Below, piece after piece: positions 1 to 28,698 of a stretch of 29,304 bases of DNA (within the stretch, counting starts at the first letter, position 1; each line of letters starts with the position of its first letter). The translations under genes were made by a program, and so were the position numbers. Below the pieces are notes generated by a model. It was not told the origin of the DNA and ran no database searches. It saw only the letters and a program-made list of their open reading frames with translations. Location: assembly GCA_018985235.1 (NCBI GenBank), contig JADGIG010000001.1:62001-91304 (forward strand), read 5' to 3'. This DNA is from Sanchytrium tribonematis. Lineage: Eukaryota.

Positions 1-2742
1 GATGCAGATTTCAATTGTGCATATGTCGCATCGTAGCCGGTCTCTTCTAGATCTGCCAGATCGTCGCTTTCTTTAGTAGAAAAAGTTTTTGGGCCAGTTT
101 GAGTCAAATTGATTATTATATCAACAAATTGAGCATAGAGAGATGGCTCTGCCTCCATCATATATGACGAGAGAGCTAGATTTCCAAATCCAACGATACA
201 AATTTTTCTTTGCACTATTCCAACTATATCTTTGGACTGGGGTATTAAAATGCCAGATATGATACTATAAAACATTCTAAATTAAAATGAAATACCCTGG
301 TTGAATGCTCTCCATGGTCTTCACAACATAATCTGGGCCAAAAGCATTATTAGCCAACAAATATGAAACGAATAAAGTGAACTCAACAGCAAATCTTGTC
401 TGCTTATTTGTTTGCAATTTTCCAAGTAGGATGGAAAAAATTTGTTTTGAATGATCTCTAAAAGATTCAAATGGAGTGTAATGGAAAAGTGCTGTCAATA
501 ATTTTAGTGCAAAAGACTCATTCACACGACTATTAAGAAGATTTTGGAAGACACCAAGTAGAGGCAATACTAAATTTCTATCCTGAAAAATATTAGGAGA
601 ATTAATCATGTAGGCTTGAAAAAGACGCACCAACGATTGAACATTAGAGTTAGCTTTCCAAACATCGGGTTTGACCAAAAAACTGAGCAATTCCTTCAGA
701 TTTAGCGGAAGCTGATTTCCAGGATGGGCGTCTAAAAGAACAGTCAAAATCTGGAATATATAAGGGCTAAATTCTATAATTTCCATGTTTAAAATACTCA
801 AGAATATTGGAATGAGCTGTTCATCAAATTGTTGAACCACTTGTGGATTGTTGTTACAACTAAATCGTAATACCATTCCAATCGCCTCAAAAAGGTAGTG
901 GTTAAATTTTGGATTAACCGGGTTTTTGCCAACTCTCTCTAAAAAGTTAAAGAATGTTGTTAATAATACATTATTGTAAGGGCTTACATCTTGCTTTAGA
1001 ACCATTATTAGTCTTACCATGACCTTGAGGTAATAATCATTTTCACTTAAATAAACACCTTCCTTTTTATTTAAGATCGTAAAAAAGGCGGTAAAAATTG
1101 GTTCAATGAGTGTTTGGATGTCTTTACTCTCAAACAACATAATACCATTCTGTTTGACACTCAAGATACGCTCGTAAGCATTAGATATAAAGGTGCACAC
1201 CACAGTATTTGGATTTTCAGATTGTATTTTTAATATATTGGTCAAATTTTCCATAACATTAAAAAGTTGATCCTTTTGGAACAATCCTCTAAAATGTGTT
1301 ATAAAATAAATTGCATCTGCTAGCAATATTGGCGTTGTAGTGGCTGCAAGGTCTGGCATGATGTTTTCTGTTAAAAAGGAACTAAGGACCTCGGCGTAAG
1401 CTGCGGGGTCAATACATACCGAACAAATTAATCTTGTTGCGGTGCTTTTATATTTCCATGAATTAGGATCGTTTTGATTATATAGCTTCAAGAACTCTTT
1501 GACAAATCTCAAACAAGACTGTGTAATGCTAGAGCTTATTGGTGATGATTCTACTAAAACTTTGACAAGCTCTGATGTGGATTTTGTAATGCTGATTGAG
1601 TCACTACCTTCAATTTCTCTTTGGGCATATGTCAGTGGCTCATCTTCAAACAATTCTATATCCTCCCGTCTTACTAATACATTCCCGACAATGACTTTAT
1701 TTACCATAAAATCTATTTCTTCAGTATTTCCATTCCCAACAAAAATGTGGATACCCTTATTTAATTTTATGCACAAAGTAACAACTTGAAGTGCTTTAGA
1801 CATCATTACGTCCCTTGTACTAGTAATCATAATAGAATTATTAAGGGATTCTTCAACTGTGAATGAATATTCTAAAACCAAGTCCCAAACACTTTGAATA
1901 ATCCCATCCAGATATTTGTCAATATCGTCCATGTACTTCGATATCAACGTTTGAATAATATCCAAGATACTTCCTCTAAGCTTCGTCAGCTTTGTTGACT
2001 CGTTTATAAGGCTTTGCTCATGATTTTTATAATTGGCATCTTTCCACAAAAGAAAATAACACCATATTTCACAAAATCTAGGAAGAAAGCCGAGAATTTC
2101 TTCGGGAATGTCGTGAAATATGAAGCAAAGAAATATTTTTGATATATTAATAAATAGCTCCAGTTGAAGATCTCTTTGTTCGATCGGCATCTCATTTGGG
2201 TAATTTGAAAACAAGCTGTCCATATATGGCAGAAGAAGCGGCACAAAAAAAGAGTTGACAGATCCTTTAATATCAGAAACAATCCCATGAGTCAAATCAT
2301 AACTTTTCCAAAGAGAAACATAAGTGTAAATAGTTTCCAATAATAGCATTTGAGTTTCTAAATTACTTTGAGAAAGATATTCTCCTAATATTTTAGGAAG
2401 TTCACTCCAATTATCGGAATCGGCAATAGTTGATATGCAAACACTAATCTGTTGTTTTACGATTTTTGAACAATTTTGTGCAGTCAAAAGATGTAATAAT
2501 TTTTGCTTCAGCATATTCCTAGATTCCAGGTCCATATAGTCATTTTGATGATAATGCCGAATAATAGCGTTTTTTAGAAATACGCTTGCGGTATGAGATA
2601 TAATTTTGTCTGGGTTTGTGGATAAGTCTACAAGGGATAGAAGGGTTGCTGGTTGGTTTTCTACTGAAGACATCAGTGAGGCAGTCGCAGCTTGTTGTGT
2701 TGCAGGATTGAGAGTTTGTTGCAATAATTCTGACAAGCTCAT
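1..2742 (-). CDS. CSE1: Exportin-2 / importin-alpha re-exporter Cse1 (3' partial; exons 2742-296 and 276-<1)
   Basis: Importin-beta N-terminal-like start (ASVFLKNAI), DIELFEDEPLTY, ENDYYLKVMVR and KNPVNPKFNHYLFE motifs. Removing intron 277-295 continues the frame as IQPGMFYSIISGILIP...RKICIVG...TGYDATYAQL, typical of the Cse1 C-terminus, open to the window edge. Confidence 0.95.
277..295 (-). other. 19-nt spliceosomal intron in CSE1 (GTATTTCATTTTAATTTAG)
   Basis: GT..AG ends. Removal joins CCA GG|A ATG and restores the conserved C-terminal reading frame. Confidence 0.9.
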
Positions 2743-2882
2743 TTCAAGGGGGAAAAGATTCCAATGTGTCCTACTGTGTTTATGATATGATTGTTAAAGG
2801 AACTAGATTCATCCAGAGTGAACACAGTGATTAATTATCTCCCGCAAGGCTCATCTATAGTCAAACACAACTTTTTTGAAAC

Positions 2883-3512
2883 ATGGCAAAGGGTGATGCA
2901 TCTACAACAGAAATACTCAAATATTTAAAAGAGACAAATCGTCCATATTCCGCTACAGATATATCATTGAATTTACAACTAAAGAAAACTGCTACTGTCA
3001 AGACATTGGCAGAAATGGCAGAGAATGGAACTTTAGCATTTAAAGAAAATGGAAAACAAGTGATATATTATATGCCACAATTGGATGATGGTCAAACAGC
3101 GGAAGAAGTAGATCAAGAAAAAAATACCATCAAACAATTGATGGAAGACATCACAGTGCTAAAAATCACAGAGCAAGAAAACAATCTTAAGATCCATGAA
3201 ATTAAGAAGTATCCTGATGATGATGACCTGGATCTTCAAATTTCTCAAATGAAAGAAAAAATATCCAAATTATCTGCAAGTTTAGAGGAATTCCAAAAGA
3301 ATCCAATTGATCCGAAAGAAAAAGATCGCATAAACAAGTCTTACACTGATATGATGAAATTATGGAAATCTAGAAAAGCAAAGTGCAAATTTATTGTTGA
3401 AGAACTGGCTGAGAAGATGGAGAAGAAACCAACTGAAATCGTTGAAGTAATGGGACTAGAAACTGATGAAGATTGCGAACAGCTATTCGAAAATTACAAT
3501 AAATACTTATAA
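2883..3512 (+). CDS. HOP2: Meiotic homologous-pairing protein Hop2 (TBPIP/PSMC3IP/Meu13)
   Basis: Winged-helix N-terminus ILKYLKETNRPYSATD...KENGKQVIY, a coiled coil, and C-terminal WKSRKAKC...GLETDE. Confidence 0.92.
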   Translation: MAKGDASTTEILKYLKETNRPYSATDISLNLQLKKTATVKTLAEMAENGTLAFKENGKQVIYYMPQLDDGQTAEEVDQEKNTIKQLMEDITVLKITEQENNLKIHEIKKYPDDDDLDLQISQMKEKISKLSASLEEFQKNPIDPKEKDRINKSYTDMMKLWKSRKAKCKFIVEELAEKMEKKPTEIVEVMGLETDEDCEQLFENYNKYL

Positions 3513-3513
3513 T

Positions 3514-4190
3514 TTATTTTTTACCTCGACCCGTTGGGGATTTTTCATCTGGTTTGTCTGACTTAAAGATAATGGCTGGCTGATTCGAAGATTCGCTTTT
3601 TTGACTTAATGGCAAAAATAATTTGTATTCAGTTGGAAGTTCTTCCTCGCTATATAATCTTTCGCTGAAATATACTCTTCTAATTCGGGTGTTAGCATGA
3701 ATGTCTACTCTTAATGCCTCAATATAGTTTGTGCCATATGCTCTTTTACAGAAATCTGCAAGATTAAACTGAATTTGATTCCAGCCTGGGTCTAACCTCA
3801 TTGGCATTGTGGTGACAAATGGATTTACCTTAGTACTAGAGGTATAATTTGATGCCAAAAATCTTCTTCTTATATTTTGATCGTCTTTAATCTAAATTAA
3901 TATGAAAATACAGCCACCTCAAAGGAAAAACTTTTGTTCATATTTTTGACAATAAGGACAAGGTATGGCAATTTGATACCCAAAGTCTCTTTCTCATTTT
4001 TTGGGCAAGTAATATAGGTAGTAGATGTATTAGCACCAACAATTTCGACAACAGAGCTTTGAATATCATCATCAGTGATTCTCTTAATTGAACCATTTTT
4101 GACATGAGAGTCGTCCCAAATGCCAAGAGGTTTCGAGCCTATAGAGTACATTATGGATAAAAATCCAGATTGAAATGTATTAGCAAACAT
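3514..4190 (-). CDS. CFAP20: Cilia- and flagella-associated protein 20 (Bug22), 218 aa after splicing; exons 4190-3912 and 3891-3514
   Basis: [22 protein letters not shown], and after the intron [16 protein letters not shown]...[15 protein letters not shown]...[18 protein letters not shown]. Very close to canonical CFAP20. Confidence 0.97.
3892..3911 (-). other. 20-nt intron in CFAP20 (GTATTTTCATATTAATTTAG)
   Basis: Removal gives [15 protein letters not shown], collinear with canonical FEVQVLDDKNVRRRF. Confidence 0.95.
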
Positions 4191-4252
4191 TTCAACAAAT
4201 TCAAGCTTTGGCCGATTTCAATTTCTAATTTTTATTTTTCCAAACAAAATTA

Positions 4253-5807
4253 ATGAATTTAGAAGCTTTACCTGTCTACGCAGCACCTGATGCCTACATA
4301 ATGTGCTTGAATCTATTTAATCAAATACAACACAACTCTATAGTTCAATACGGCTGCACCTTTAAAGATAATATTTTAATTATTGGCTGTTTAAAACATA
4401 CAAAGATAGAAAATGCAAATCCCGAATATTTTAATGACTATATTCTACAGCTAGTGCACGCTTTAAAATACCTTGTAGAAGAGGAAATTAATCCAATTTA
4501 CGCCTCAATTAGATTTGTCGGTAGGAAGCTTCTATTAGAAAACTGGTTTTATTCTTTGATTCAAAATTCTGTCGATTCTTTGCCGAACGTAAGCTCTGAG
4601 CACACTATCCAGCGGTTGGTAAAGGAAGTTGTGAATGCATGTGGCCTACGAGAGAGCGACATACCACAAGATTCGAACATATATTATGCTGTACAAGGAA
4701 TGCTGAAAAATGATAATATTATAGATTCAATCAAACAAGCATATGTGATATTAGAAAACAACCACCTTCTACCATTTTCACCAGAAGATTTATTTTATGC
4801 ACCTTTGTCAGGTTATCATTTTTTGTCCTGGGCCATGCAATTTGTAAACATTAAAAAAAACAAGCAGCCAATTTTGTTTTCAATGGAGCCTACATTTGTA
4901 CCAGCTAGGTCCGAGTTCTCTCCACCAACTGTAAGTGGCCCGCTATCTGTTATCAACTTTGACATTATTAACACTTTCAATCAGCACAAAAATTCGGAAA
5001 TTTTCCAAAATGGGTGTACCATCTTAAACAAACTACCTACAAATGATTTGACTTTTGATATTCACAACATTCCTCCTTGGATACGATCTGACGTATATCG
5101 TACTGTCTTTCGTGTGCACAGCAATGTCCAAAGCGATTATTTAAAATATTTAAAAATCATAGATCCCGAAACGACTTCGCAGATAGCTCTAGATGTTCCA
5201 CGCTGTCACAGCTACCATTCTGTATTAAGTTGTCCGACCGGCAGGCATATGCTGAGGAGGATTTTAGAAGTTTGGTGCAATGAAAACAAAGATTTAGAAT
5301 ATTGGCAAGGAATAGACTCGATCGCTGCAACTTTTTTAAATATATTTCTTTTCGATGAATCTATTGCGTATCATTGTTTTTCTACCTTTATAAGGACAAG
5401 ACTTGCTGGTTTATTTAAAAAGGGAGCTAGTGAATTTCCAATGCTTCTGAAATCATGTCAGGACCAAGTCACAAAAGAAATACCAAGACTTCAAGAATTG
5501 GATATTCAACCTGATTTGGTCACAGTTCCATGGTTTCTGACTGCTTTTTCTCGTATCACATATTTATTTAGACGTTTTACCATTTAGGCAGGTGTTTCTG
5601 ATTTGGGATACCCTAATATTCACATGCAATTCGCAAGATGAAACTACACAATTTTTGGTTGATCTGGGTGTTAAAATAATCCAGCACAGTCTTGGTAATT
5701 TGGAAGGCAGTAGTTTTGAAGATGGCCAATCTATGATTGATAAGCTATATGATCTAAGGGACTCAGACCTTCAAAAAATTCTTATAGAAGTAAATTCAAG
5801 CCCTTAG
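4253..5807 (+). CDS. TBCK: TBCK-like Rab-GAP TBC-domain protein, 511 aa; exons 4253-5552 and 5572-5807
   Basis: QIALDVPRCHSY...GRHMLRRILEVW...YWQGIDSIAATFL, and after splicing PWFLTAFSHVLPFRQVFLIWD, match the TBCK-type TBC domain. The N-terminus may be a degenerate pseudokinase. Confidence 0.8.
5553..5571 (+). other. 19-nt intron in TBCK-like gene (GTATCACATATTTATTTAG)
   Basis: Removal yields TCT C|AC GTT TTA CCA (SHVLP) and joins the 5592-5807 ORF in frame. Confidence 0.92.
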
Positions 5808-7464: not shown

Positions 7465-9869
7465 ATGAGTAGCGAAACTATTATATCTTATCATCAAGTC
7501 TTTGCGACTTACCTTGGCGAAAAAATAGATCCTTCTTCCCGGACAAATGCTAGACAAAAATTATCATTACTTTCAGAGAACCAATTTGGGGAACTAGCCA
7601 CGGATATACATGATGAATTGAAAAGACGTATATCTGTTGAAAAAATTCCATTTTTACAGGTCAGAAGCGATTTTCATCCAAAAAGAAATCAAGCTAGACA
7701 AAAATTGGCTACTTTACCAGAAAAAAGATTTAGAGATTTAGTAATTGATGTTATCGTGGAACTCGAAAGAAGATTTCCAGAACTTAGCACAGAAGAAACG
7801 AGTAGGCAGTCTACCCTTAAAAAAAGTGATCCTGTATTATCCCAAAAACCAGAAACTATTTTGAGTCCTAAAAATGAACTATCACCTTTGACAAAAGCAG
7901 ATGTCGTCCGCGAAGCTTATAATAAAGAATATTTGAGGGAAACGAAAAGTGTACAGGGTTCAGGTGACTTGAATTTTGCCAGCTTAGATTCTCTTATGAA
8001 AGACTTGGGAGATTTGGTAACAGGAAAATCAGATTCGACTGAAGATATTGTTCCTCAAAAGAAGAAGAAAGTCACTGAATCAGTGTTGTCGCTAGAAAAT
8101 TTACCGAAATCAGAGGACACTGCTAAAATTAGGAAGGAAAAAGAACTTTTGGAAAAGAAGTACCGGCAGGTAGAGTCAGATCTTGAGAAAGAAAGATCAA
8201 AAGTTCTTCAATGCCAAAAAGAACTCGGTGCAGCTCAGATTGAGTTGCAGAAGAGTAAATCTGAATTGGAAACCCTGAATTCTAAAAGAGGTGTTATTGA
8301 GAAGGAAGTAGATAGAGTTAAAGAATTGTTGGACAAGGAAAAAGCTCTTAGGCAAGCTGAAAAGCGGGAGCTTGAGCAGAAACTATCTTCAAAAGATTTC
8401 GAAATCCAAGAAAAGCAAAAAATTATTTTAAATATGGAGTCGATAGCGAACCAAAGTCAAAAGGCGCTCGATAAATATTTGAAGGAAATTGACCAACTCA
8501 AGACTGATAATTTGAGGCAGCTAGGAGAAATGAATATATTAAAGAAGAAATTATCCGAATTCGATTCCAAATCAGGCAATTTACACGAACAAGGCAGTCA
8601 AACAAATCTACTCACTGAAATAGATACTAAATCGAAAGATTTAGATCGAGCTTCTTCTCAAAAGCAGAAATCACCTTCTAAACTTGGAAAAAGCGAAGCC
8701 AAATTGGAAGGTGTCCAAAAAAGTTCCGAGAAGGATATCAATGGAGATATTAACAAAACTGATAGTAAAGTTTCAGATAAGAGTGAAAGCGTATCACCAA
8801 ATAAGTTAAAGTCTAAAGTACCAGAATCTTTATCAAAGGCCCCCTCGAGTTCGAAATTGAACGTCGAGAAAAAACCTAATGTTGACATTAACAATCTTCC
8901 ATGGGAAGTTTCACGTAAAACAATCGTTGTGTCGCAATTTTTAGACTCTGTAACCATTGATGATATAACTCCGTCAGTCAAAGGTGGGGTTGTTCCCTCA
9001 AGGCTTGGGGCATTCCAAAATTCTGTAGACACACTTCTCGATTCTCAGAAAAGCGGAGTGCCTGCTGATATTTTAGTAGCTATGAAGTCCATAGTGATAG
9101 CTTGCAAAAACATCACTAACGACATTGAAAAGTTCGAGTCCACGAGTGCTAGCGAAACTGCAAAAGAATCATTAACAGGTTTAAAAACTCAACTTTCTTC
9201 TTCCTTAACGGCATTAATGACTGCGGCCAAAAGCCACGCCACAGGGCTAGCAAAAGGCTCAAGCAAGTCGACTTCTGAGGACATCGAGAGAGGCTGTGAA
9301 GATTTAACAAAAGTGATTATCAATATTTTAAAAATTGCTAAAGTTAAGGCAGAAAAAGTCGATGAAGATGACATACCACTCAAAAAACTAAAAGATATGT
9401 CTCTAACACCGTCTGCAGAAACAAGCCCTCAAAAACAATCCAAATCAGTGATGTCTTCTGCGGATTTGAAAGTAATAATTTTTTAATTTAGACATTTCTT
9501 GAGAAACAGACAGATGTTATTGTTCAAAACATACAGCAATTACTATCACAAATGCGGACGGGAACCTTTGAAAACGAATTTCGGAATACAGTATCTGATA
9601 TATCAATTGTAGTTAAAAATTTATGTACAGTTTGTGAGGATGCCATTATAAGGAGTCCCGGCTATGAATCTCTTCGCACAGGTTCAAAGTCAATTGTGGA
9701 AGATCTGCAAAGAAGTAATGTTGAGCTTTCAAAGCTTGCTGACGAAGTCGTTGCTGCCTACTCAAAAGAGGGTGCTACATCTGAAATTGTACGCGGACTT
9801 AAACAAAAACTCGCTTCATCTAGCTATGAAATAGCAAAATACACCAAAGAACTAGTCAACCTTTTATAA
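7465..9869 (+). CDS. SPA2: Polarisome scaffold Spa2 (GIT/SHD repeats, coiled coil, C-terminal helical domains), 794 aa; exons 7465-9471 and 9492-9869
   Basis: Two Spa2-homology repeats (ARQKLSLLSENQFGELATDIHDELKRR; RNQARQKLATLPEKRFRDLVIDVIVELERRFP). After splicing: LKTFLEKQTDVIVQNIQQLL...KQKLASSSYEIAKYTKELV. Confidence 0.92.
9472..9491 (+). other. 20-nt intron in SPA2 (GTAATAATTTTTTAATTTAG)
   Basis: Removal puts the 9552-9869 ORF in frame and restores the C-terminal domain start. Confidence 0.92.
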
Positions 9870-10339: not shown

Positions 10340-11386
10340 ATGACTCAAACTCTCGACGCTTCAACCTTACTAATCGAAGACAAAGAGAATATACCCATCA
10401 AGTCATTGAGCAGCTGCTCCTTCGCAAGGCCAGTAGTGCGACGAATTTGTCCGTCTAGCTGCCCGTTAGCTGCCAATTTTTACTACCTTCTATTTGATAT
10501 CCAATATCAAATGATCATGGTAGAGTCGCAAAACATTCACATTTTCCAAGAGTGTGAGGATAGACAATTTTATGGTTGGATAAAAAAAATGGCATTATGC
10601 CAATTAGAAAGATCGACGGTCTGGCGCGCTTGGTTTATATATCTTTGCACACACAAAAAGTTTATGATAAACGATACCTACTTGGCTACTTGCACTTGGA
10701 TTGCAATAAAATACGACGAAGATGTAGCTCCTGCATTTCATACAATTTTGAAATTATTTGACACTAATCCTAAAGATATCCAAGCCAAAGAAAGGGAAAT
10801 TCTCTGTTCTGTAGATTACAAACTTAACCTATTTACGCCAAACGAGTGGTTAACCTTGTATCTCAGAATGGCAGTTTTACGAACTCCATCTTTGTTTTCT
10901 GAAAAAAATCCCGCTGCTACTGCTAGCTACTTTGAATCCAGAAAAGGCTTAGATCCATACCATGTTCACTATTTGCCTGACATGGCTACGCTTTCTCGTG
11001 CATTTTTTCTCTTGGATATCTTGTCTTTGCACCCGAGCACTAGGCGTGTACCTTACTCTAAAACTGCTGCTGGAATCTTCATGTACATGTTTAATGATGG
11101 TAAATTTTAGTAATATAGACGATTATGTGAAAAAAGTCACTGGTTATCCTGCCCAAGTCCTTGAAGACATTATTGAGACACTCGACGACATTTTAATGTC
11201 ACAGCATATCCCGGAAAATTATATCTTCGATCCCAAAGACCCAGAATGGTAATCTGTAATTTATTTAGGGTCCATGTTCAAAAAATACCAATTTCAAGAA
11301 ATGACATGGAAAATTTGGAAAAGCAACAATTTGAGAACGATTGTATGTTGACGCCAAAAGACTCACCATGTCGAGCATATTCTTAG
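10340..11386 (+). CDS. Divergent cell-cycle cyclin, 335 aa; exons 10340-11099, 11119-11248, 11269-11386
   Basis: Cyclin-box helices LERSTVWRA...ATCTWIAIKYDEDVAP...AKEREILCSVDYKLNLFTPNEWL, then YSKTAAG and KKVTGY in the C-terminal box. Two introns give a continuous frame. Confidence 0.8.
11100..11118 (+). other. 19-nt intron in cyclin (GTAAATTTTAGTAATATAG)
   Basis: Removal gives GAT G|AC GAT TAT GTG AAA AAA GTC ACT GGT TAT (DDDYVKKVTGY). Confidence 0.85.
11249..11268 (+). other. 20-nt intron in cyclin (GTAATCTGTAATTTATTTAG)
   Basis: Matches the intron consensus. Removal extends the ORF by 38 codons to a TAG followed by TAAATT. Confidence 0.75.
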
Positions 11387-20727: not shown

Positions 20728-21298
20728 TTATTTGACTTTCTTTGACTTAACGTGCAAATTATATACTCTTGATACAGCTAAGTTATGATTAATTACTGAC
20801 TTGCAAAGTGGTGATTATTTTTTTTAAAAGTTTTCTTTGATCTCCAATAGATTTTTTCTTACTTTCAACTTCTTCTTGTCTAATCTCTAGCATTTTTATA
20901 GCGTCATCTAATGGATATTCAACCATCAGGGTATTGCTAAGCCAGATATTAACGTTTTGCAATGGTTCCACAGTTCCATCTGCATACAATGAATCAGCCA
21001 ACTGAAATTTAGTTTTTAAAGTTTTTTGTTGCTTTAAATCAGTAATGACTTCTATATCTTTCTCAAGCTCTCTCTTCTTCTCATTTAATTCACTTACTGT
21101 GGAGACTGTATATGTTTCTTGCTTTTGGGCCATTTGTAATAAGTTTTGCAGATGGTTAATTACAATTGCTGCTGAACTTTCAGTCAACTTTTCTAATAAA
21201 TTTTGTTCAACATGTTGAACAGCTTGGATAGTCTGCCATTTGTTAAAAGGTGAAGGCAAATCTTCAACTTTGACAAATCTAGGTTGTTCTTTGGACAT
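20728..21298 (-). CDS. PAC10: Prefoldin subunit 3 (Pac10/VBP1), 183 aa; exons 21298-20797 and 20777-20728
   Basis: TKFQLADSLY, VNIWL...MVEYPLDDA, and after splicing ITTLQVTVSRVYN (canonical TT.EV.MARVYN). Confidence 0.88.
20778..20796 (-). other. 19-nt intron in prefoldin 3 (GTAATTAATCATAACTTAG)
   Basis: Removal restores the conserved RVYN C-terminal motif. Confidence 0.9.
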
Positions 21299-21795: not shown

Positions 21796-21829
21796 GACCT
21801 AGAACATTTTGAAAGAATTTTTATGATAT

Positions 21830-22423
21830 TCACAATTTATTGATTTCGTTTCTCATTCTTACAGTTTCTGAACGCCATTCGTCCGCTAACAGACGATTTT
21901 TAGGGTTCAATTTAAATTGCGCTAATTTTTCATCCCTGGCAGCATTTCTTAGTTGTCTTATAGCATTTCTAGCCTTGAGTGCCGATGTAACTGGTCCATC
22001 TTTATATTCTTGAAATGTTGGTATATCTGAAGTTTCAGTTAATGTTCTCTCGACTCGTTTTCTTCCAGTAGAAGGAATCGAGGAATGAATCGAAATCGAG
22101 GTTTCTGATTTAGCATCATATTGCTTAAGTTGTGGATATATATCCATAACAACAGCGCAAATCACATCATTTAAATATTTTAGATGCAATAAATCTTTCT
22201 TTACAACTAGTTTAGCGTCTATGTGTGACAAATCTAGTTGGGTAAGAACACTTAAAAAGTCGATTATCATTTGCATTGATTGTATTGGGTCTAGGGATGC
22301 TTTAAATTTAATTTGTAAAATGTCTTCCAATAATAATAGCCATAATGTAGAAGGAACGTCTCTCAAATGATAAATATAAATTGGCCAGTTGAAATACTCA
22401 AATATCGAATTCAATAAAAGCAT
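21830..22423 (-). CDS. DUF5745 / CEP95 N-terminal-like domain protein
   Basis: I..L.D....W..L.E.IL...MQMIIDFL...LDLSHI....VVK.D...LK.L resembles the CEP95 N-terminal domain. The start is uncertain (first in-frame ATG is 22423). Confidence 0.6.
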   Translation of the reverse strand: MLLLNSIFEYFNWPIYIYHLRDVPSTLWLLLLEDILQIKFKASLDPIQSMQMIIDFLSVLTQLDLSHIDAKLVVKKDLLHLKYLNDVICAVVMDIYPQLKQYDAKSETSISIHSSIPSTGRKRVERTLTETSDIPTFQEYKDGPVTSALKARNAIRQLRNAARDEKLAQFKLNPKNRLLADEWRSETVRMRNEINKL

Positions 22424-22606
22424 CGCGTTCCAAAAATATTTCTGAGCCAACTTTTCCTGGTTATGAAACCATGAAATACAAATCTGGAATAATCAACAAT
22501 TTAAATTTGAATGAACTGTGCTTGACTTAACCTTGGATGAAGATCATTTAATTGTAGCCCAAATAGATATGCCCAGTCTTGTAGATTAATTCAATCTCCT
22601 TGAAAT

Positions 22607-24385
22607 ATGTTTACTTTGTTTGCAGACATAGACGATAGTTTGCCCTCGACCAGCATGACGGGTTACCAAATTTATTTTGTGGAAGAGTTTGTTTGTCAGC
22701 AGTTACAATTCAAAAGTATTTTGATTTACACTGGAAACAACCAAGATGAAGTGAAATTATATCAATACCCGATTAGCAACAAAGTTCCACATATTTCCAA
22801 TTTACCCAATATTCAAATGAAAAAGACTGAATACGGAAATCTTTTTTATTTTGAATTTCATCAAGTAGGATTAAAAATTATTCATAGTCAGACTTTTGAT
22901 CTTGACTTAATGCACCAACATATTACTCTTCAAAAATTTGGGATAATTGACAAGCTTCCGTTTGCATTAAAGCCAATATCCGAGTCAGTTGTTACTAAAT
23001 TAAACCATATGTACAAATTGCAAGCAACTACGACAAATTATAAATCATTTTTACATTTAATGCTACAAATATTATCATCAGCAATCAAGGCATTTGGCAT
23101 AAGTATACCGGTATGTTCATTTTTCAGCAACTCATTATTGAATTCGTATCAAGCCTGTCTCACATTGTTGAATGTTCCTTTAACGTTGATAATCTCCCCT
23201 AAATATTTTTCCTTAATAGTTTCGAAAGTTTTAGGATACAGAAACAAGCTCAACTTGCTGCTAAAAGATGTCACTAAAGACCCGTTCATAGACATTGAAA
23301 ATCTTCTTAAGGCCATATCCAGTTTTCAAAAAAGCAAAGATCTTTATAGATCAGGATATCTTGATATTAAGACAATGAAGCAAATAGACTTGTCATATCA
23401 AAAGCACAAGGAAAGGCACATACCAAATAAAATAAAATCCAAACTCGAGGATCTTAGCGGGATTCAGCAAAAGATTTTATTTGTTTCCGTTGATTCTATT
23501 GAAGAGCTTCTGGAATATCAACTAGGGGAAAAGTTAGGATTGCTATGGTCAAAGGAAGAAAAAGAAGTTGAAGGATTGCTTAAAGGCGGAAAAGAATTTG
23601 GGAAGTCGTTAATCAAAAATGTTCAATCAAAGACCCTTATTTCAGACGGTGAGAGAGTTCTTTCTATCAGTCATCCCCTAAACCCGCTAAGCAAGAAAAG
23701 AAAAAGCTCAACCAAGAGCTCTGATATACCAGAATCTCCACGATTGCAAGAACCGAGGCGTGTGGCCGAAATACAAACAAGCAATGATCAGAATCACTAT
23801 GAAATTTACGAACTAAGTTTACTAAAAATGAAAGCAAAGTCAACAGAAAACTTAGTACTGGTCAACAAGGCACTTCGAAGAACATTTTCTGAGACAGATT
23901 TACAATTATTATATGCAGCAAAAAGTGAAAGTCAAGATGCTCTTTTGCTAAATGAAGTGAATGATTTATTCCAAGTATTAAACTCTAAGGAGTCGGCTTT
24001 AGAAGATAATTTGAGATCGCTTCAGCAACTTGAGCTTGAATTACAAACAGAAAAAGATGCTCTTTTAAAGAAATGTGATTCGAAAAAGTCAATTATAGAT
24101 GGATATGAGTCTGTGGTAAATGCACTGCTTAGTACTCAAAATAAAATTTCTAAGAATTCAGAAGAAAATGGGAAGCGATTAAATCAAGCGAAAAAAGAAA
24201 TGCAACAATTTGAAATGCAACTAAGCAAAGTTGAAGACACAATAAGCATTCTTTCTAGTAAAATTGCTGACAACGCAGAAACTGAAAAAAAGCTTATCGA
24301 ATCGGCTAAGCCTGTTTCCTTGATTTCGACCATTATAAAATGGAGTGTGAATATGTTTTACAACAGCCAAAAGTCACCGAAATAA
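22607..24385 (+). CDS. Stb6/Stb2-like protein with C-terminal coiled coil
   Basis: GYQIYFVEEFVC...ILIYTGN, TEYGNLF, SKVLGYRNKL and KDPF resemble the fungal STB6 family. Confidence 0.75.
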   Translation: MFTLFADIDDSLPSTSMTGYQIYFVEEFVCQQLQFKSILIYTGNNQDEVKLYQYPISNKVPHISNLPNIQMKKTEYGNLFYFEFHQVGLKIIHSQTFDLDLMHQHITLQKFGIIDKLPFALKPISESVVTKLNHMYKLQATTTNYKSFLHLMLQILSSAIKAFGISIPVCSFFSNSLLNSYQACLTLLNVPLTLIISPKYFSLIVSKVLGYRNKLNLLLKDVTKDPFIDIENLLKAISSFQKSKDLYRSGYLDIKTMKQIDLSYQKHKERHIPNKIKSKLEDLSGIQQKILFVSVDSIEELLEYQLGEKLGLLWSKEEKEVEGLLKGGKEFGKSLIKNVQSKTLISDGERVLSISHPLNPLSKKRKSSTKSSDIPESPRLQEPRRVAEIQTSNDQNHYEIYELSLLKMKAKSTENLVLVNKALRRTFSETDLQLLYAAKSESQDALLLNEVNDLFQVLNSKESALEDNLRSLQQLELELQTEKDALLKKCDSKKSIIDGYESVVNALLSTQNKISKNSEENGKRLNQAKKEMQQFEMQLSKVEDTISILSSKIADNAETEKKLIESAKPVSLISTIIKWSVNMFYNSQKSPK

Positions 24386-24407: not shown

Positions 24408-25253
24408 ATGGAAAATATTCGACGACCTCTGGAACTTTACTCAAAGAATTATGCTTTGCATGAAGTGTACAACCCATGTCAATCAAATGGATATTATCTT
24501 CGTGACAAACATCAAGAATTAATTATGATTAGAAACCGTACATCAACCATTGATGGACCCCTATTTTACATTATTGGACAAGAAGGTGTAGAATTAAAAT
24601 TAATAGATATTTTTGGGCGATTAAAATGCCCTGGCTGTTGTACAAATCATAAATCGTTTAAAGACTTAACGGACCATGTGAGATTATCCTTTGTGGGGAA
24701 AGCCAAACTGATTGATTTGGGTGTGGATGTTGTTTTAGCAATTTTCTCTTATAAAGATTCCAGAAATTATTGGTCATGTGCGGAATGTGTCAGACCTACG
24801 GGAAAGCTAGAGCTTGAGGTCATTCCTATACCTATACCATCAGCTGTGAACCCTGTTTATCGATACAAGACGTACTTGAACATCAAAAACGCTTGGAATA
24901 ATGCCTTTAATAATTTTTGTGGAGAAAAAAATGAAAATTTTTATGCTGATCCTAGGGCTTTATTAATTCACATCTACTCAGTGTCTATGGATACTATTTT
25001 GAGTCAATTACACATTCCAACTTCGAAGCCTACAAATTCTTTCATATTTATTTTGTTGACATGCCACATTGGAGTAATGTTGGTTGAATTAGATTTTTTA
25101 AAATATTACAAAATTTTACTTTTGGAATTATACTCTAAGAGAATGATCAGCCTTAAATACGTTGAAGAATGTATAAAGATATTATCAGCTGTTAAAAGCT
25201 TCACTTTGCCATGTAAAGATGAAGATTATAGAAAAAAAACTAAATATATGTAG
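24408..25253 (+). CDS. Hypothetical protein with CxxC motifs (possible zinc binding)
   Basis: 281-aa ORF with CPGC-x12-H and CAEC. No family recognised. Confidence 0.6.
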   Translation: MENIRRPLELYSKNYALHEVYNPCQSNGYYLRDKHQELIMIRNRTSTIDGPLFYIIGQEGVELKLIDIFGRLKCPGCCTNHKSFKDLTDHVRLSFVGKAKLIDLGVDVVLAIFSYKDSRNYWSCAECVRPTGKLELEVIPIPIPSAVNPVYRYKTYLNIKNAWNNAFNNFCGEKNENFYADPRALLIHIYSVSMDTILSQLHIPTSKPTNSFIFILLTCHIGVMLVELDFLKYYKILLLELYSKRMISLKYVEECIKILSAVKSFTLPCKDEDYRKKTKYM

Positions 25254-26280
25254 CAACTTTTCGAAGTTTCTTTACGGGTCCTTCAGTAAATTGTATGGCT
25301 TCTTCTTTCTTTGGCACGTTTGTCAATCTTGAGACTGCTTGCAAACTAACATATTCTAAAGCAAAAAATTTTGATGGCATTGGAGGAGATCTTTCGTAAA
25401 CAGACCGACCATCCACGATAAATTTAAGGGAAGCGCTTGAGTCGCTATGTAATTCAAAATTATATTTTTCTTTATGTAATGATATAAATAGTAGAGTCGA
25501 GGACGTTTTGCTTGTATGAGTACCCAATTCAGTCACCTCTAGCAAATTGTCTGGAATGCCTTTTTTCAAAAACTGAGGATTCAACTTTAAAAAATCAAGA
25601 GCCTCGCTTGCTAAAGTTGTAGCACAGTAAAATTTGTTTTTTAGAGTAGAAGTGAATCGCTTCGAAGCAATTTGAATATAAGAGAATTTGGCTTCTAAAT
25701 TTATGCTCACTTCTAAATGCCAATACTTAAAATAAAGCTCAAATAATGGATTGTGAGTGGAAAGTATTTCAAGCAAATCTTTTGCACATTTCTCGATATT
25801 ACAAGGTTCAAACGGCGCATGAATCTTCAGGCTTGGTATTTCCAAAAAGTTGGAATCAGTAGTCATTTTAATTCCGATAGCATCACAAAGTGTTTGAAGT
25901 GTACTGAAATGCATAGCACAGGCATTCCCAATTTCGCCATTGTCCATATGATCAATAGAAGTACTACTGTCGGTGTCCTCATTTAAGGCCTGGCGAGACA
26001 ATGATGGCTTATATCTATTGATTTCTTCAGTTAATAAAACTGAAGTGCTTTGAATAATATCTTTTTTGGATTTTCCAAGTTGTATTACATCTAAAACTTT
26101 CAAGCATACATTTGACTTTGATTCCTTCTTAGTTGATCGGACATCCCCATAGACATCTAATTTCAATTGCTGTATTGTAGCTTTACATATAAATCCATTT
26201 TCAAATGGGGTAATTGCAAACAATATATTGTACTTATTTTTTTGGCAATATTCATTGAGCTTTATTTTAAGTATTGGCAT
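25240..26280 (-). CDS. dsRNA-binding-motif (dsRBD) protein, probably with additional degenerate dsRBDs
   Basis: KIKLNEYCQK...GFICKATI...YGDVRSTKKESKSNVCLKVL is a recognisable dsRBD. Later segments (NPLFEL...TLASEALDFL; FIVDGRSVY...SKFFALEYVSLQAVSRL) look like degenerate copies. Confidence 0.75.
   Translation of the reverse strand: MPILKIKLNEYCQKNKYNILFAITPFENGFICKATIQQLKLDVYGDVRSTKKESKSNVCLKVLDVIQLGKSKKDIIQSTSVLLTEEINRYKPSLSRQALNEDTDSSTSIDHMDNGEIGNACAMHFSTLQTLCDAIGIKMTTDSNFLEIPSLKIHAPFEPCNIEKCAKDLLEILSTHNPLFELYFKYWHLEVSINLEAKFSYIQIASKRFTSTLKNKFYCATTLASEALDFLKLNPQFLKKGIPDNLLEVTELGTHTSKTSSTLLFISLHKEKYNFELHSDSSASLKFIVDGRSVYERSPPMPSKFFALEYVSLQAVSRLTNVPKKEEAIQFTEGPVKKLRKVATYI
25698..25742 (+). 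repeat. Left arm of perfect 45-bp inverted repeat (AATTTATGCTCACTTCTAAATGCCAATACTTAAAATAAAGCTCAA)
   Basis: Exact reverse complement of 26255-26299, checked base by base. Confidence 0.95.
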
Positions 26281-26299
26281 TTAGAAGTGAGCATAAATT
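26255..26299 (-). repeat. Right arm of perfect 45-bp inverted repeat; spans the TAA-ATG junction at 26283-26278
   Basis: TTGAGCTTTATTTTAAGTATTGGCATTTAGAAGTGAGCATAAATT on the + strand, with a 512-nt spacer to the left arm. Confidence 0.95.
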
Positions 26300-26607
26300 G
26301 AGATCTTTTCAATGGTATTAATTTTTGGATTTTCGTTCCATTTTTCACTCTCACTTTTGAGCCATTTTTTTCCTACCTCGGATTTCATATATTCTAGACC
26401 AAAATTAGATAATATACACTCAATTAGTGTTTCTCGTTCAATAAAGTAACAAGGACTAACGGGTTGACAATAAACCCACAATTGTGCTTTGAATCCACTC
26501 TTAGAATTATTCAACAAGTGTTTTTCCTTTTTAAATTGATAAGGAGCATTAATAGAATTCATAGATACCTCAAAAGATTTAATATCTTCAAAGGTAGCCA
26601 ATTTCAT
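26281..26607 (-). CDS. 108-aa ORF, possibly a degenerate dsRBD, in frame with and directly abutting the dsRBD gene
   Basis: YQF.....GFKAQLWV....E....S..GLEYM has dsRBD-like spacing. The ATG is preceded by CCTTG, like other starts. Confidence 0.55.
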   Translation of the reverse strand: MKLATFEDIKSFEVSMNSINAPYQFKKEKHLLNNSKSGFKAQLWVYCQPVSPCYFIERETLIECILSNFGLEYMKSEVGKKWLKSESEKWNENPKINTIEKISIYAHF

Positions 26608-26652
26608 AATCACAAGGAGAACATAAGAACTTTAGTCAGATCAAATTAAAAT

Positions 26653-28200: not shown

Positions 28201-28698
28201 ATGAATTTTTTCAAATATAATTTTTTACCCGACTCTTTAAATATGAATCGAATAACCGGCGAAGTTAAGCAAAAGAAACTAATTTGGAATGATGGGGAAG
28301 AAAATTATTCCTTTAGTATCGATAAAGAAGTGAACCCGCAAAATGAGTATGTATTGTTAAAGAACAAAAAGAGCGGAAAATTTATATTGCAAAAAATAGA
28401 TATATCCAGAACACTTAGATATGATAGAAACGTCATAAAGAGGTCACCTTCGCCATACAAGCATTTAGATGGCTCTCCAACTTTTTCTTCTCTTTCGGCA
28501 CGCACGGGTTTATCTCTAACTCCAACTTTGATTGAAGAGGAAATCTTATCGCCGCCTGTGAAGAAACAAAAAATCGCTGCAAATGGATCTGCGGGTAATT
28601 CTTTACATAGTGCTATTTTCGGTGATGTATTGGAGAAAGAGGTTGGTATTATAGAGGAGGATCTAGCCCCGAAATCTTTAAATGCTATTTATCAATAA
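28201..28698 (+). CDS. ELL-associated factor (EAF) domain protein
   Basis: KYNFLPDSL and EYVLL.NKKSGKFILQKI match the EAF domain pattern (YDFKPASI; CVLIINHDTGEYVLEKL). Confidence 0.7.
   Translation: MNFFKYNFLPDSLNMNRITGEVKQKKLIWNDGEENYSFSIDKEVNPQNEYVLLKNKKSGKFILQKIDISRTLRYDRNVIKRSPSPYKHLDGSPTFSSLSARTGLSLTPTLIEEEILSPPVKKQKIAANGSAGNSLHSAIFGDVLEKEVGIIEEDLAPKSLNAIYQ

What the first reader, a model, noticed from the sequence alone, without database searches (positions are those of the whole stretch)
3892..3911. Fixed-position branch point fused to the acceptor: GTAW...TWAYWTAG
Seen: all seven introns start GTA(A/T). They end TAATTTAG (x3), TTATTTAG (x2), TAATATAG or TAACTTAG, giving invariant T at -8, A at -6 and TAG, with no polypyrimidine tract. 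Known: Stentor tiny introns branch at an A six nt from the 3' end. Inference: convergent architecture, with a lariat loop of only 14-15 nt and the 3' splice site set by distance from the branch A.
Basis: partly seen in the sequence, partly recalled or inferred. Interest (0 to 1): 0.7.

Follow-up and report, generated by a model that had tools for sequence, protein, structure and literature searches.

The report
19–20-base introns in a sanchytrid fungus
Six genes in this stretch of a likely sanchytrid (algae-parasitic) fungus are broken by seven predicted introns only 19–20 bases long, each with an A six bases from its end that likely serves as the splicing branch point; this design is known from ciliates, a yeast and microsporidia, but I found no report of it in this fungal group, whose public protein sets stop short at these introns.

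Summary
Observation confirmed. 3892-3911 is a 20-nt GT-AG intron on the minus strand of CFAP20, and six more (19-20 nt) split Cse1, a TBC GAP, GIT/Spa2, a cyclin (two) and a prefoldin. Each is the shortest GT-AG removal that restores the frame, and three junctions are colinear with homologs. All seven have T at -8 and A at -6; that register pairs best with canonical U2 (34 of 42 pairs, shuffles 22.7). The nearest named relative is Amoeboradix gromovi (Sanchytriomycota). Read-through peptides of relatives decode to 19-21-nt introns at the same sites with A at -6. The CFAP20 intron position is shared with many other eukaryotes, so it is likely an old intron that shrank. Not shown: splicing in RNA, the lariat, or whether the acceptor is set by distance or is simply the first AG. 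U2AF and SF1 are annotated in A. gromovi; Slu7 and Prp18 are not (weak). Fixed -6 spacing is known (Stentor, Yarrowia), so this is a new member of a known kind. Earlier scan notes describe longer tiny introns in Rozella and Neolecta; none mentions sanchytrids.

The parts
3892..3911 (-). 20-nt phase-0 intron in CFAP20 (the finding); predicted branch A at 3897
   Evidence: Removal gives a 218-aa CFAP20 with no gap at the junction against an intronless homolog, 135 identities in 191 columns; the 23- and 26-nt alternatives open gaps. Pfam CFA20 profile 1-93 then 93-184 on the two exons.
3514..4190 (-). CFAP20 gene: exon 1 4190-3912, exon 2 3891-3514
277..295 (-). 19-nt phase-2 intron in Cse1/exportin-2 (exon 1 2742-296; exon 2 runs off the window start)
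   Evidence: Pfam CAS_CSE1 1-292 then 290-382; spliced product colinear with three full-length homologs at the junction; three relatives end at the same place.
5553..5571 (+). 19-nt phase-1 intron in a TBC Rab-GAP gene (exons 4253-5552, 5572-5807)
   Evidence: Spliced 511-aa product matches relative P0134 without a gap at the junction.
9472..9491 (+). 20-nt phase-0 intron in GIT/Spa2 (exons 7465-9471, 9492-9869)
   Evidence: Joins the GIT_SHD/VBS ORF to the GIT1_C ORF in frame; junction not aligned to a homolog.
11100..11118 (+). 19-nt phase-1 intron 1 in a cyclin gene (exon 1 starts 10340)
   Evidence: Shortest frame-restoring GT-AG removal; no homolog check.
11249..11268 (+). 20-nt phase-2 intron 2 in the cyclin gene (exon 3 ends 11386)
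   Evidence: Shortest frame-restoring GT-AG removal; no homolog check.
20778..20796 (-). 19-nt phase-1 intron in a prefoldin subunit gene (exons 21298-20797, 20777-20728)
   Evidence: Pfam Prefoldin 3-112 of 120 on exon 1; shortest frame-restoring removal; no homolog alignment.

Best explanation
These are seven predicted major-spliceosome (U2-type) introns of 19-20 nt in a likely sanchytrid fungus, likely old introns shrunk until the 5' site (GTAW) and the branch helix nearly touch, with the A at -6 predicted to be the branch nucleotide and the acceptor being the first AG after it. U2's GUAGUA would pair with intron positions -11 to -5 (majority bases T A T T A A T: the yeast-type branch sequence with both C replaced by T, so G-U wobbles). 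Branching would make a 14-15-nt loop with a 5-nt tail. With so short a tail the AG could dock without scanning, which would make Slu7 and Prp18 dispensable. Shown: sequence pattern, frame repair, homolog colinearity at three junctions, fit to canonical U2. Inferred: splicing itself, branch use, docking mode, loss of Slu7/Prp18.
For: Motif-blind enumeration: at each of 7 junctions the shortest GT/GC-AG removal that restores the frame is the 19- or 20-mer (3 to 25 options per junction). Colinear with homologs for CFAP20, TBC, Cse1. Register test over -11 to -3: only -6 has A in 7 of 7, and it gives the most pairs to GUAGUA (34 of 42; next 27); shuffles holding GTAW, the A and TAG fixed average 22.7, P = 1.1e-4. 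The A is at +14 or +15 from the 5' end but always -6 from the 3' end. Relatives: A. gromovi CFAP20 read-through decodes best to a 19-nt intron ending NAAYYTAG and regenerates three exon-2 residues; its Cse1 read-through fits 19 nt ending TNATHTAG; ENA protein P0132 carries an in-frame 21-nt read-through ending NAAYGTAG. 107 of 118 listed non-sanchytrid CFAP20 ORFs leave the family sequence at the same junction, and P0015 reads through an intron exactly there. A. gromovi annotation holds Prp8, SF3B1, U1-70K, U2AF1, U2AF2, SF1, Prp17, Prp22, Cwc22, Cwc25, Yju2, Isy1, Dbr1. Yeast exon ligation needs no Slu7/Prp18 at a 7-nt branch-to-acceptor distance (PMC3683925).
Against: No RNA or lariat evidence. 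Only 7 introns from one window, found through frame breaks, so stop-free 3n introns could be missed. The introns are 79-90% AT and T pairs with both A and G of U2, so the pairing score is soft; the organism's own U2 was not seen (no Rfam hit in the window). No intron has C at -9, unlike WCTRAY. Decodes from relatives are not all unique: A. gromovi CFAP20 also allows 25 or 30 nt, its Cse1 has no downstream check, its TBC could be 17 nt (A at -6, no T at -8) or longer. They are orthologs of the window's introns, not an independent sample. P0134 shows no intron at the TBC site (lost or already spliced by a gene caller). The cyclin, GIT and prefoldin junctions lack a homolog alignment. Cyanidioschyzon lacks Slu7/Prp18 despite long branch-acceptor distances (PMC10158995), so such a loss would not prove the mechanism.
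Confidence: 0.8

Rival explanations
1. TWAYWTAG is an extended acceptor consensus read by proteins (as TTTCAG is in Caenorhabditis), and branching happens at a variable upstream A.
For: U2AF1, U2AF2 and SF1 are annotated in A. gromovi; A occurs at -10 and at -12 in 4 of 7 introns each; an extended nematode acceptor is described in PMC2483917.
Against: Register -10 has A in 4 of 7 and 19 of 42 pairs, against 7 of 7 and 34 of 42 at -6; an upstream branch would need a loop of 11 nt or less.
Confidence: 0.08
2. Intron ends are measured from the 5' site (pure length ruler), and T-8/A-6 is kept for another reason such as in-frame stop codons that send unspliced RNA to decay.
For: Lengths are only 19 or 20; 6 of 7 introns carry an in-frame stop within themselves when retained.
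Against: The A tracks the 3' end in both lengths; the triplet is TTA (not a stop) in 2 of 7; it occurs in all three phases; the stop-free 21-nt insert of P0132 keeps A at -6.
Confidence: 0.06
3. The branch is the -7 A or alternates between -7 and -6.
For: A at -7 in 5 of 7.
Against: Two introns have T at -7; register -7 gives only 12 of 42 pairs.
Confidence: 0.04
4. They are not spliceosomal introns: assembly frameshifts, pseudogene breaks, or IRE1/tRNA-endonuclease-type introns.
For: No RNA confirmation; about 20 nt is also the size of fungal HAC1-type introns (recalled).
Against: GT-AG ends in 7 of 7; clean junctions in conserved genes; the same breaks in three relatives; no shared hairpin, folding z from -1.6 to 1.0.
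Confidence: 0.02

Closest known systems
Tiny introns of Stentor coeruleus and other heterotrich ciliates (PMC9505925; parts 1-3 of 6 of the text read)
   Same: AT-rich GTA...AG introns in two adjacent lengths; putative branch A at position 10 of 15 or 11 of 16, i.e. -6, with a 5-nt tail; weak U-rich branch context; the commonest Stentor intron ends in the same TWAYWTAG pattern.
   Different: 15-16 nt and a 10-11-nt loop there, 19-20 nt and 14-15 here; unrelated supergroup; the -6 A is 7 of 7 here in a tiny sample.
Fixed branch-to-AG introns of Yarrowia lipolytica, Trichomonas and Giardia (Irimia and Roy 2008, PMC2483917; passages read)
   Same: No polypyrimidine tract; branch anchored to the AG; Yarrowia's 2-nt spacer puts the branch A at -6, as here, and in a fungus.
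   Different: They have strong ACTAAC branch sites and longer introns (Yarrowia median 204 nt); here the branch is a degenerate TWAY and the whole intron is 19-20 nt.
Microsporidian introns, Encephalitozoon cuniculi (PMC2483917, PMC6349667; passages read)
   Same: Reduced parasite related to fungi; TAAYTT hexamer; short GT-AG introns.
   Different: About 25 nt or more (median 32), strong GTAAGT donor, a few dozen introns biased to gene starts, much-reduced spliceosome; here about 0.3 introns per gene, mostly late in the gene, bare GTAW donor, and a fairly full spliceosome in the relative.
Bigelowiella nucleomorph (18-21 nt) and Mikrocytos (16-17 nt) introns (PMC10245619, section 7 read)
   Same: Same narrow size class; Bigelowiella overlaps in length.
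   Different: Endosymbiont nucleus or rhizarian parasite; PMC2483917 reports no branch signature for Bigelowiella, whereas a fixed A is seen here.

Membership tests
U2-type spliceosomal intron | GT...AG ends | tested here: met
   7 of 7
U2-type spliceosomal intron | Removal restores a conserved reading frame | tested here: met
   7 of 7 by frame; 3 of 7 also by homolog alignment
U2-type spliceosomal intron | Removed from RNA through a lariat | not testable with these tools
   No RNA holder listed
U2-type spliceosomal intron | Branch site pairs with U2 snRNA | tested here: inconclusive
   34 of 42 pairs to canonical GUAGUA at -6; the organism's own U2 not seen
U2-type spliceosomal intron | Major spliceosome present | tested here: met
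   In the relative A. gromovi only, from a published eggNOG table
U12-type intron | RTATCCTT donor and TCCTTAAC branch (motifs recalled) | tested here: not met
   0 of 7 carry either (sequences)
Fixed branch-to-AG introns (Irimia and Roy 2008) | Branch-like A at one distance from the AG, no polypyrimidine tract | tested here: met
   A at -6 in 7 of 7; three bases before AG
Fixed branch-to-AG introns (Irimia and Roy 2008) | Strong WCTRAY branch consensus | tested here: not met
   C at -9 in 0 of 7; T at -7 in 2 of 7
Ultra-short uniform introns (Stentor, Mikrocytos, Bigelowiella nucleomorph) | Length under about 22 nt in a very narrow range | tested here: met
   4 of 19 nt, 3 of 20 nt; 19-21 nt decoded in relatives
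Ultra-short uniform introns (Stentor, Mikrocytos, Bigelowiella nucleomorph) | Holds genome-wide | not testable with these tools
   No genome held for this window; no sanchytrid locus in two metagenome scans
IRE1/HAC1-type or tRNA-type intron | Conserved hairpins at both junctions, non GT-AG ends (recalled) | tested here: not met
   Folding z -1.6 to 1.0, no shared structure

The most novel reading that the evidence does not exclude
Sanchytrids have shrunk essentially all their introns, including ancestral ones, to 19-21 nt, the shortest in Fungi, so that donor and branch helix fill the whole intron; their spliceosome kept U1, U2AF and SF1 but shed the acceptor-docking pair Slu7/Prp18 because the AG always sits five bases behind the branch. 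The intron-blind public proteomes would then hold many truncated or missing genes, so some reported sanchytrid gene losses could be artefacts.
Probability: 0.3. Interest if true: 0.65.

Novelty: new member of a known kind. Interest (0 to 1): 0.46.

Why it matters
It adds a fungal lineage to the short list with near-minimal introns, arriving at the same -6 spacing as heterotrich ciliates and Yarrowia, which suggests a geometric floor for the branch-to-acceptor tail. Because at least one intron position is shared with other eukaryotes, shrinkage of the same intron can be followed against long-intron orthologs. Practically, the published sanchytrid proteomes were made by TransDecoder on genomic contigs (PMC8371127 methods): A. 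gromovi Cse1, CFAP20 and TBC are truncated at these introns and its SF1 appears as two adjacent ORFs, so gene-content claims for this phylum deserve a re-annotation with a minimum intron near 15 nt.

Tried and rejected
No whole genome is held, so no genome-wide logo. Sequencing-run search: no RNA holder listed; one DNA run, X1, possibly this DNA's source; its contig covers 1-15000 in one piece with no differences or joints, which is not independent support. Metagenome scan with the Cse1 alignment: 457 pattern hits, none confirmed. Scan with the CFAP20 alignment: 7 loci, none sanchytrid-like; L001-L006 are intronless CFAP20 at 53-54% GC, used only as a colinearity control, L007 is spurious. Rfam and ARAGORN: nothing in the window. 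A possible counter-example, a 64-nt GT-AG stretch 21799-21862(-) joining the DUF5745 ORF to the next ORF, was rejected: relative P0136 (195 aa, 61%) ends at the same place and conserves residues beyond the supposed donor. A matrix scan of 2275 GT-AG stretches of 16-30 nt ranked the seven training introns on top (leave-one-out 10.5-18.8 bits) and showed no sense-strand 3n candidate among the best 25. One alignment (Cse1) used a wrong start and was redone. Searches of the supplements for CFAP20 names gave 0 hits, so I cannot say whether this gene was scored as lost. The Stentor genome paper (PMC5659724) is not held.

Full report
What is at the coordinates. The window is a gene-dense eukaryotic contig of about 34% GC read with the standard code. 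Positions 3892-3911 on the minus strand are a 20-nt GT-AG stretch that splits the CFAP20 domain: Pfam profile positions 1-93 lie on the upstream ORF and 93-184 on the downstream one. Removing it gives a 218-aa protein that aligns without a gap at the junction to an intronless CFAP20 from locus L001 (135 identities in 191 columns); the 23- and 26-nt alternatives open gaps.

The other six. Four are 19 nt, three 20 nt; that is 7 introns in 6 of the 23 genes or ORFs I counted by hand. To avoid picking by motif I listed every GT/GC-AG removal of 10-120 nt (10-60 for prefoldin) that joins the flanking ORFs in frame: 16, 13, 8, 16, 25, 16 and 3 options, and the shortest was the 19- or 20-mer each time. 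Cse1 and TBC junctions are colinear with homologs; GIT, prefoldin and both cyclin junctions rest on frame, Pfam layout and motif only.

Is the pattern more than chance? Columns from the 3' end: -11 T 6/7, -10 A 4/7, -9 T 5/7, -8 T 7/7, -7 A 5/7, -6 A 7/7, -5 T 6/7 (C 1), -4 T 6/7, then TAG 7/7; the 5' end is GTA 7/7, then A or T. The strict motif occurs 7 times at 19-20 nt against 0.21 in 300 shuffles (circular). Shuffling intron interiors gives any all-A column in 0.33% of trials. Testing every branch register from -11 to -3 against the canonical U2 motif GUAGUA (taken from PMC9505925), -6 is the only one with A in 7 of 7 and has the most pairs, 34 of 42 with wobbles; shuffles that hold the ends and the A fixed average 22.7 (P = 1.1e-4). 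The T-rich make-up softens this test, and the organism's own U2 was not seen.

Which organism. Cse1 exon 1 found 8 proteins at E <= 1e-50 among 7994 candidates scored; after the window's own, the best are two unnamed ENA proteins (57%, 55%) and Amoeboradix gromovi (52%), then a drop to 29%. TBC gave the same trio at 53-57% and CFAP20 exon 1 is 86-95% identical to them. The three genes share a contig name in A. gromovi and share longest-contig lengths in the two ENA relatives, which suggests synteny. A. gromovi belongs to Sanchytriomycota, parasites of algae (abstract). I infer a sanchytrid other than A. gromovi and did not determine the species.

Relatives carry the same introns. Because these database proteins were called without splicing, their tails are intron read-through. 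The A. gromovi CFAP20 tail decodes best to a 19-nt intron ending NAAYYTAG, which also regenerates three exon-2 residues (25 and 30 nt are allowed with one or no residue checked); its Cse1 tail fits 19 nt ending TNATHTAG, unchecked downstream. ENA protein P0132 has a seven-residue insert at the TBC junction that decodes uniquely to 21 nt ending NAAYGTAG: A at -6 again, G at -4, and a stop-free 3n intron of a kind my frame-break search would miss. P0009 and P0010 stop at intron positions 13-15, as the window does. Against: the A. gromovi TBC tail is undecidable (17 nt without T at -8, or longer), and P0134 shows no intron there. All of these are orthologs of the window's introns.

Origin. Of the 118 non-sanchytrid CFAP20 ORFs listed (best 120 of 413 hits, limited to 53-170 aa and so enriched for truncated forms), 107 leave the family sequence at this junction and 11 continue; P0015 reads through an intron exactly there. 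The position is therefore likely ancestral and the intron shrunk rather than newly inserted. I tested this for CFAP20 only.

Mechanism. Inferred: U2 pairs with -11 to -5, bulging the -6 A; in a 19-mer that helix starts at +9, so donor region and branch helix nearly abut; the lariat loop would be 14-15 nt with a 5-nt tail. In 7 of 7 the acceptor is the first AG after the A, the next AG ending 7-30 nt further on, so a ruler and first-AG choice cannot be told apart. In purified yeast spliceosomes exon ligation at a 7-nt branch-acceptor distance needs Prp16 but not Slu7/Prp18, though these raise the yield (PMC3683925, passages). In the published eggNOG table for A. gromovi (supplementary file 4 of PMC8371127; the stored copy is cut early in the second species' sheet) I found Prp8, SF3B1, U1-70K, U2AF1, U2AF2, SF1 (two adjacent ORFs), Prp17, Prp22, a Prp16-class helicase, Cwc22, Cwc25, Yju2, Isy1 and Dbr1, but no row for Slu7 or Prp18 by name, KOG or KEGG number; U1C and a U11/U12 protein were also not found (numbers recalled). 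Only about half the proteins are annotated and ORFs were called without splicing, so absence is weak, and Cyanidioschyzon lacks both factors with long distances (PMC10158995, passages).

What is known. Stentor: 15-16 nt, putative branch A at -6. Yarrowia, Trichomonas, Giardia: branch anchored to the AG, Yarrowia at -6; E. cuniculi: TAAYTT hexamer (PMC2483917), introns of about 25 nt, and Rozella about 30 nt (PMC6349667). Mikrocytos 16-17 nt, Bigelowiella nucleomorph 18-21 nt; myxozoans 22-27 nt median (PMC13644364, part 1 of 3). PMC13685798, PMC8476143 and the Entamoeba preprint were seen as passages and gave nothing on sanchytrids in those passages. The architecture is thus known; the lineage is new.

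Not in print? Searches 'Sanchytrium + intron' (8 papers listed), 'Amoeboradix + intron' (9) and 'sanchytrid + introns' (0) showed no title or abstract start on nuclear introns in this phylum. The genome paper's main text has 'intron' once, in a reference title, and 'splic' never; the TPPP paper likewise; I did not open the other listed papers. Its main supplementary PDF and one data file were too large to read and one PDF had no text, so a mention there is not excluded; subscription journals are not searched. These introns are shorter than any fungal ones in the passages I read, but I recall unverified reports of very short microsporidian introns and do not claim a record.

Verdict. Real, likely spliced, conserved across at least four sanchytrid genomes; a new member of the known class of ultra-short introns with a fixed -6 branch-like A. 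Interest 0.46; up to 0.65 if it holds genome-wide with loss of Slu7/Prp18.

Noticed in passing
window 25694-25747 and 26250-26303: A 54-nt inverted repeat (94% complementary, 502 nt apart). One arm lies inside the coding ORF 25240-26280(-); the other straddles its start and the stop of ORF 26281-26631(-). Local inverted duplication or an amplification chimera.
   Followed up: no
window 28595-28610 (+): A 16-nt perfect match to the intron motif inside the open EAF-domain ORF; removal would shift the frame. Probably chance or an unused decoy; if unspliced in RNA it would bound the minimum length above 16 nt.
   Followed up: partly
window 24258-24278 (+): A 21-nt in-frame GT-AG stretch with a CTGAC branch-like motif inside the unannotated ORF 22604-24385; no T at -8; untested.
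   Followed up: no
window 277-5807: Cse1, CFAP20 and TBC appear syntenic with A. gromovi and two unnamed ENA relatives. The collection holds the window's Cse1 and TBC as truncated exon-1 read-throughs (P0001 821 aa, P0131 444 aa).
   Followed up: partly
window 3514-4190 (-): CFAP20, an axonemal inner-junction protein (role recalled), is intact and well conserved although sanchytrid flagella are described as non-motile; its exon-1 read-through is only 97 aa and was not in the protein collection.
   Followed up: partly
window, all seven introns: All are non-3n, 6 of 7 contain an in-frame stop when retained, and most lie in the 3' part of their genes, unlike the 5' bias reported for microsporidia and Stentor; partly a detection bias.
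   Followed up: partly
L001-L006: Six distinct intronless CFAP20 loci of 53-54% GC from one metagenome: several related eukaryote genomes or paralogs.
   Followed up: no
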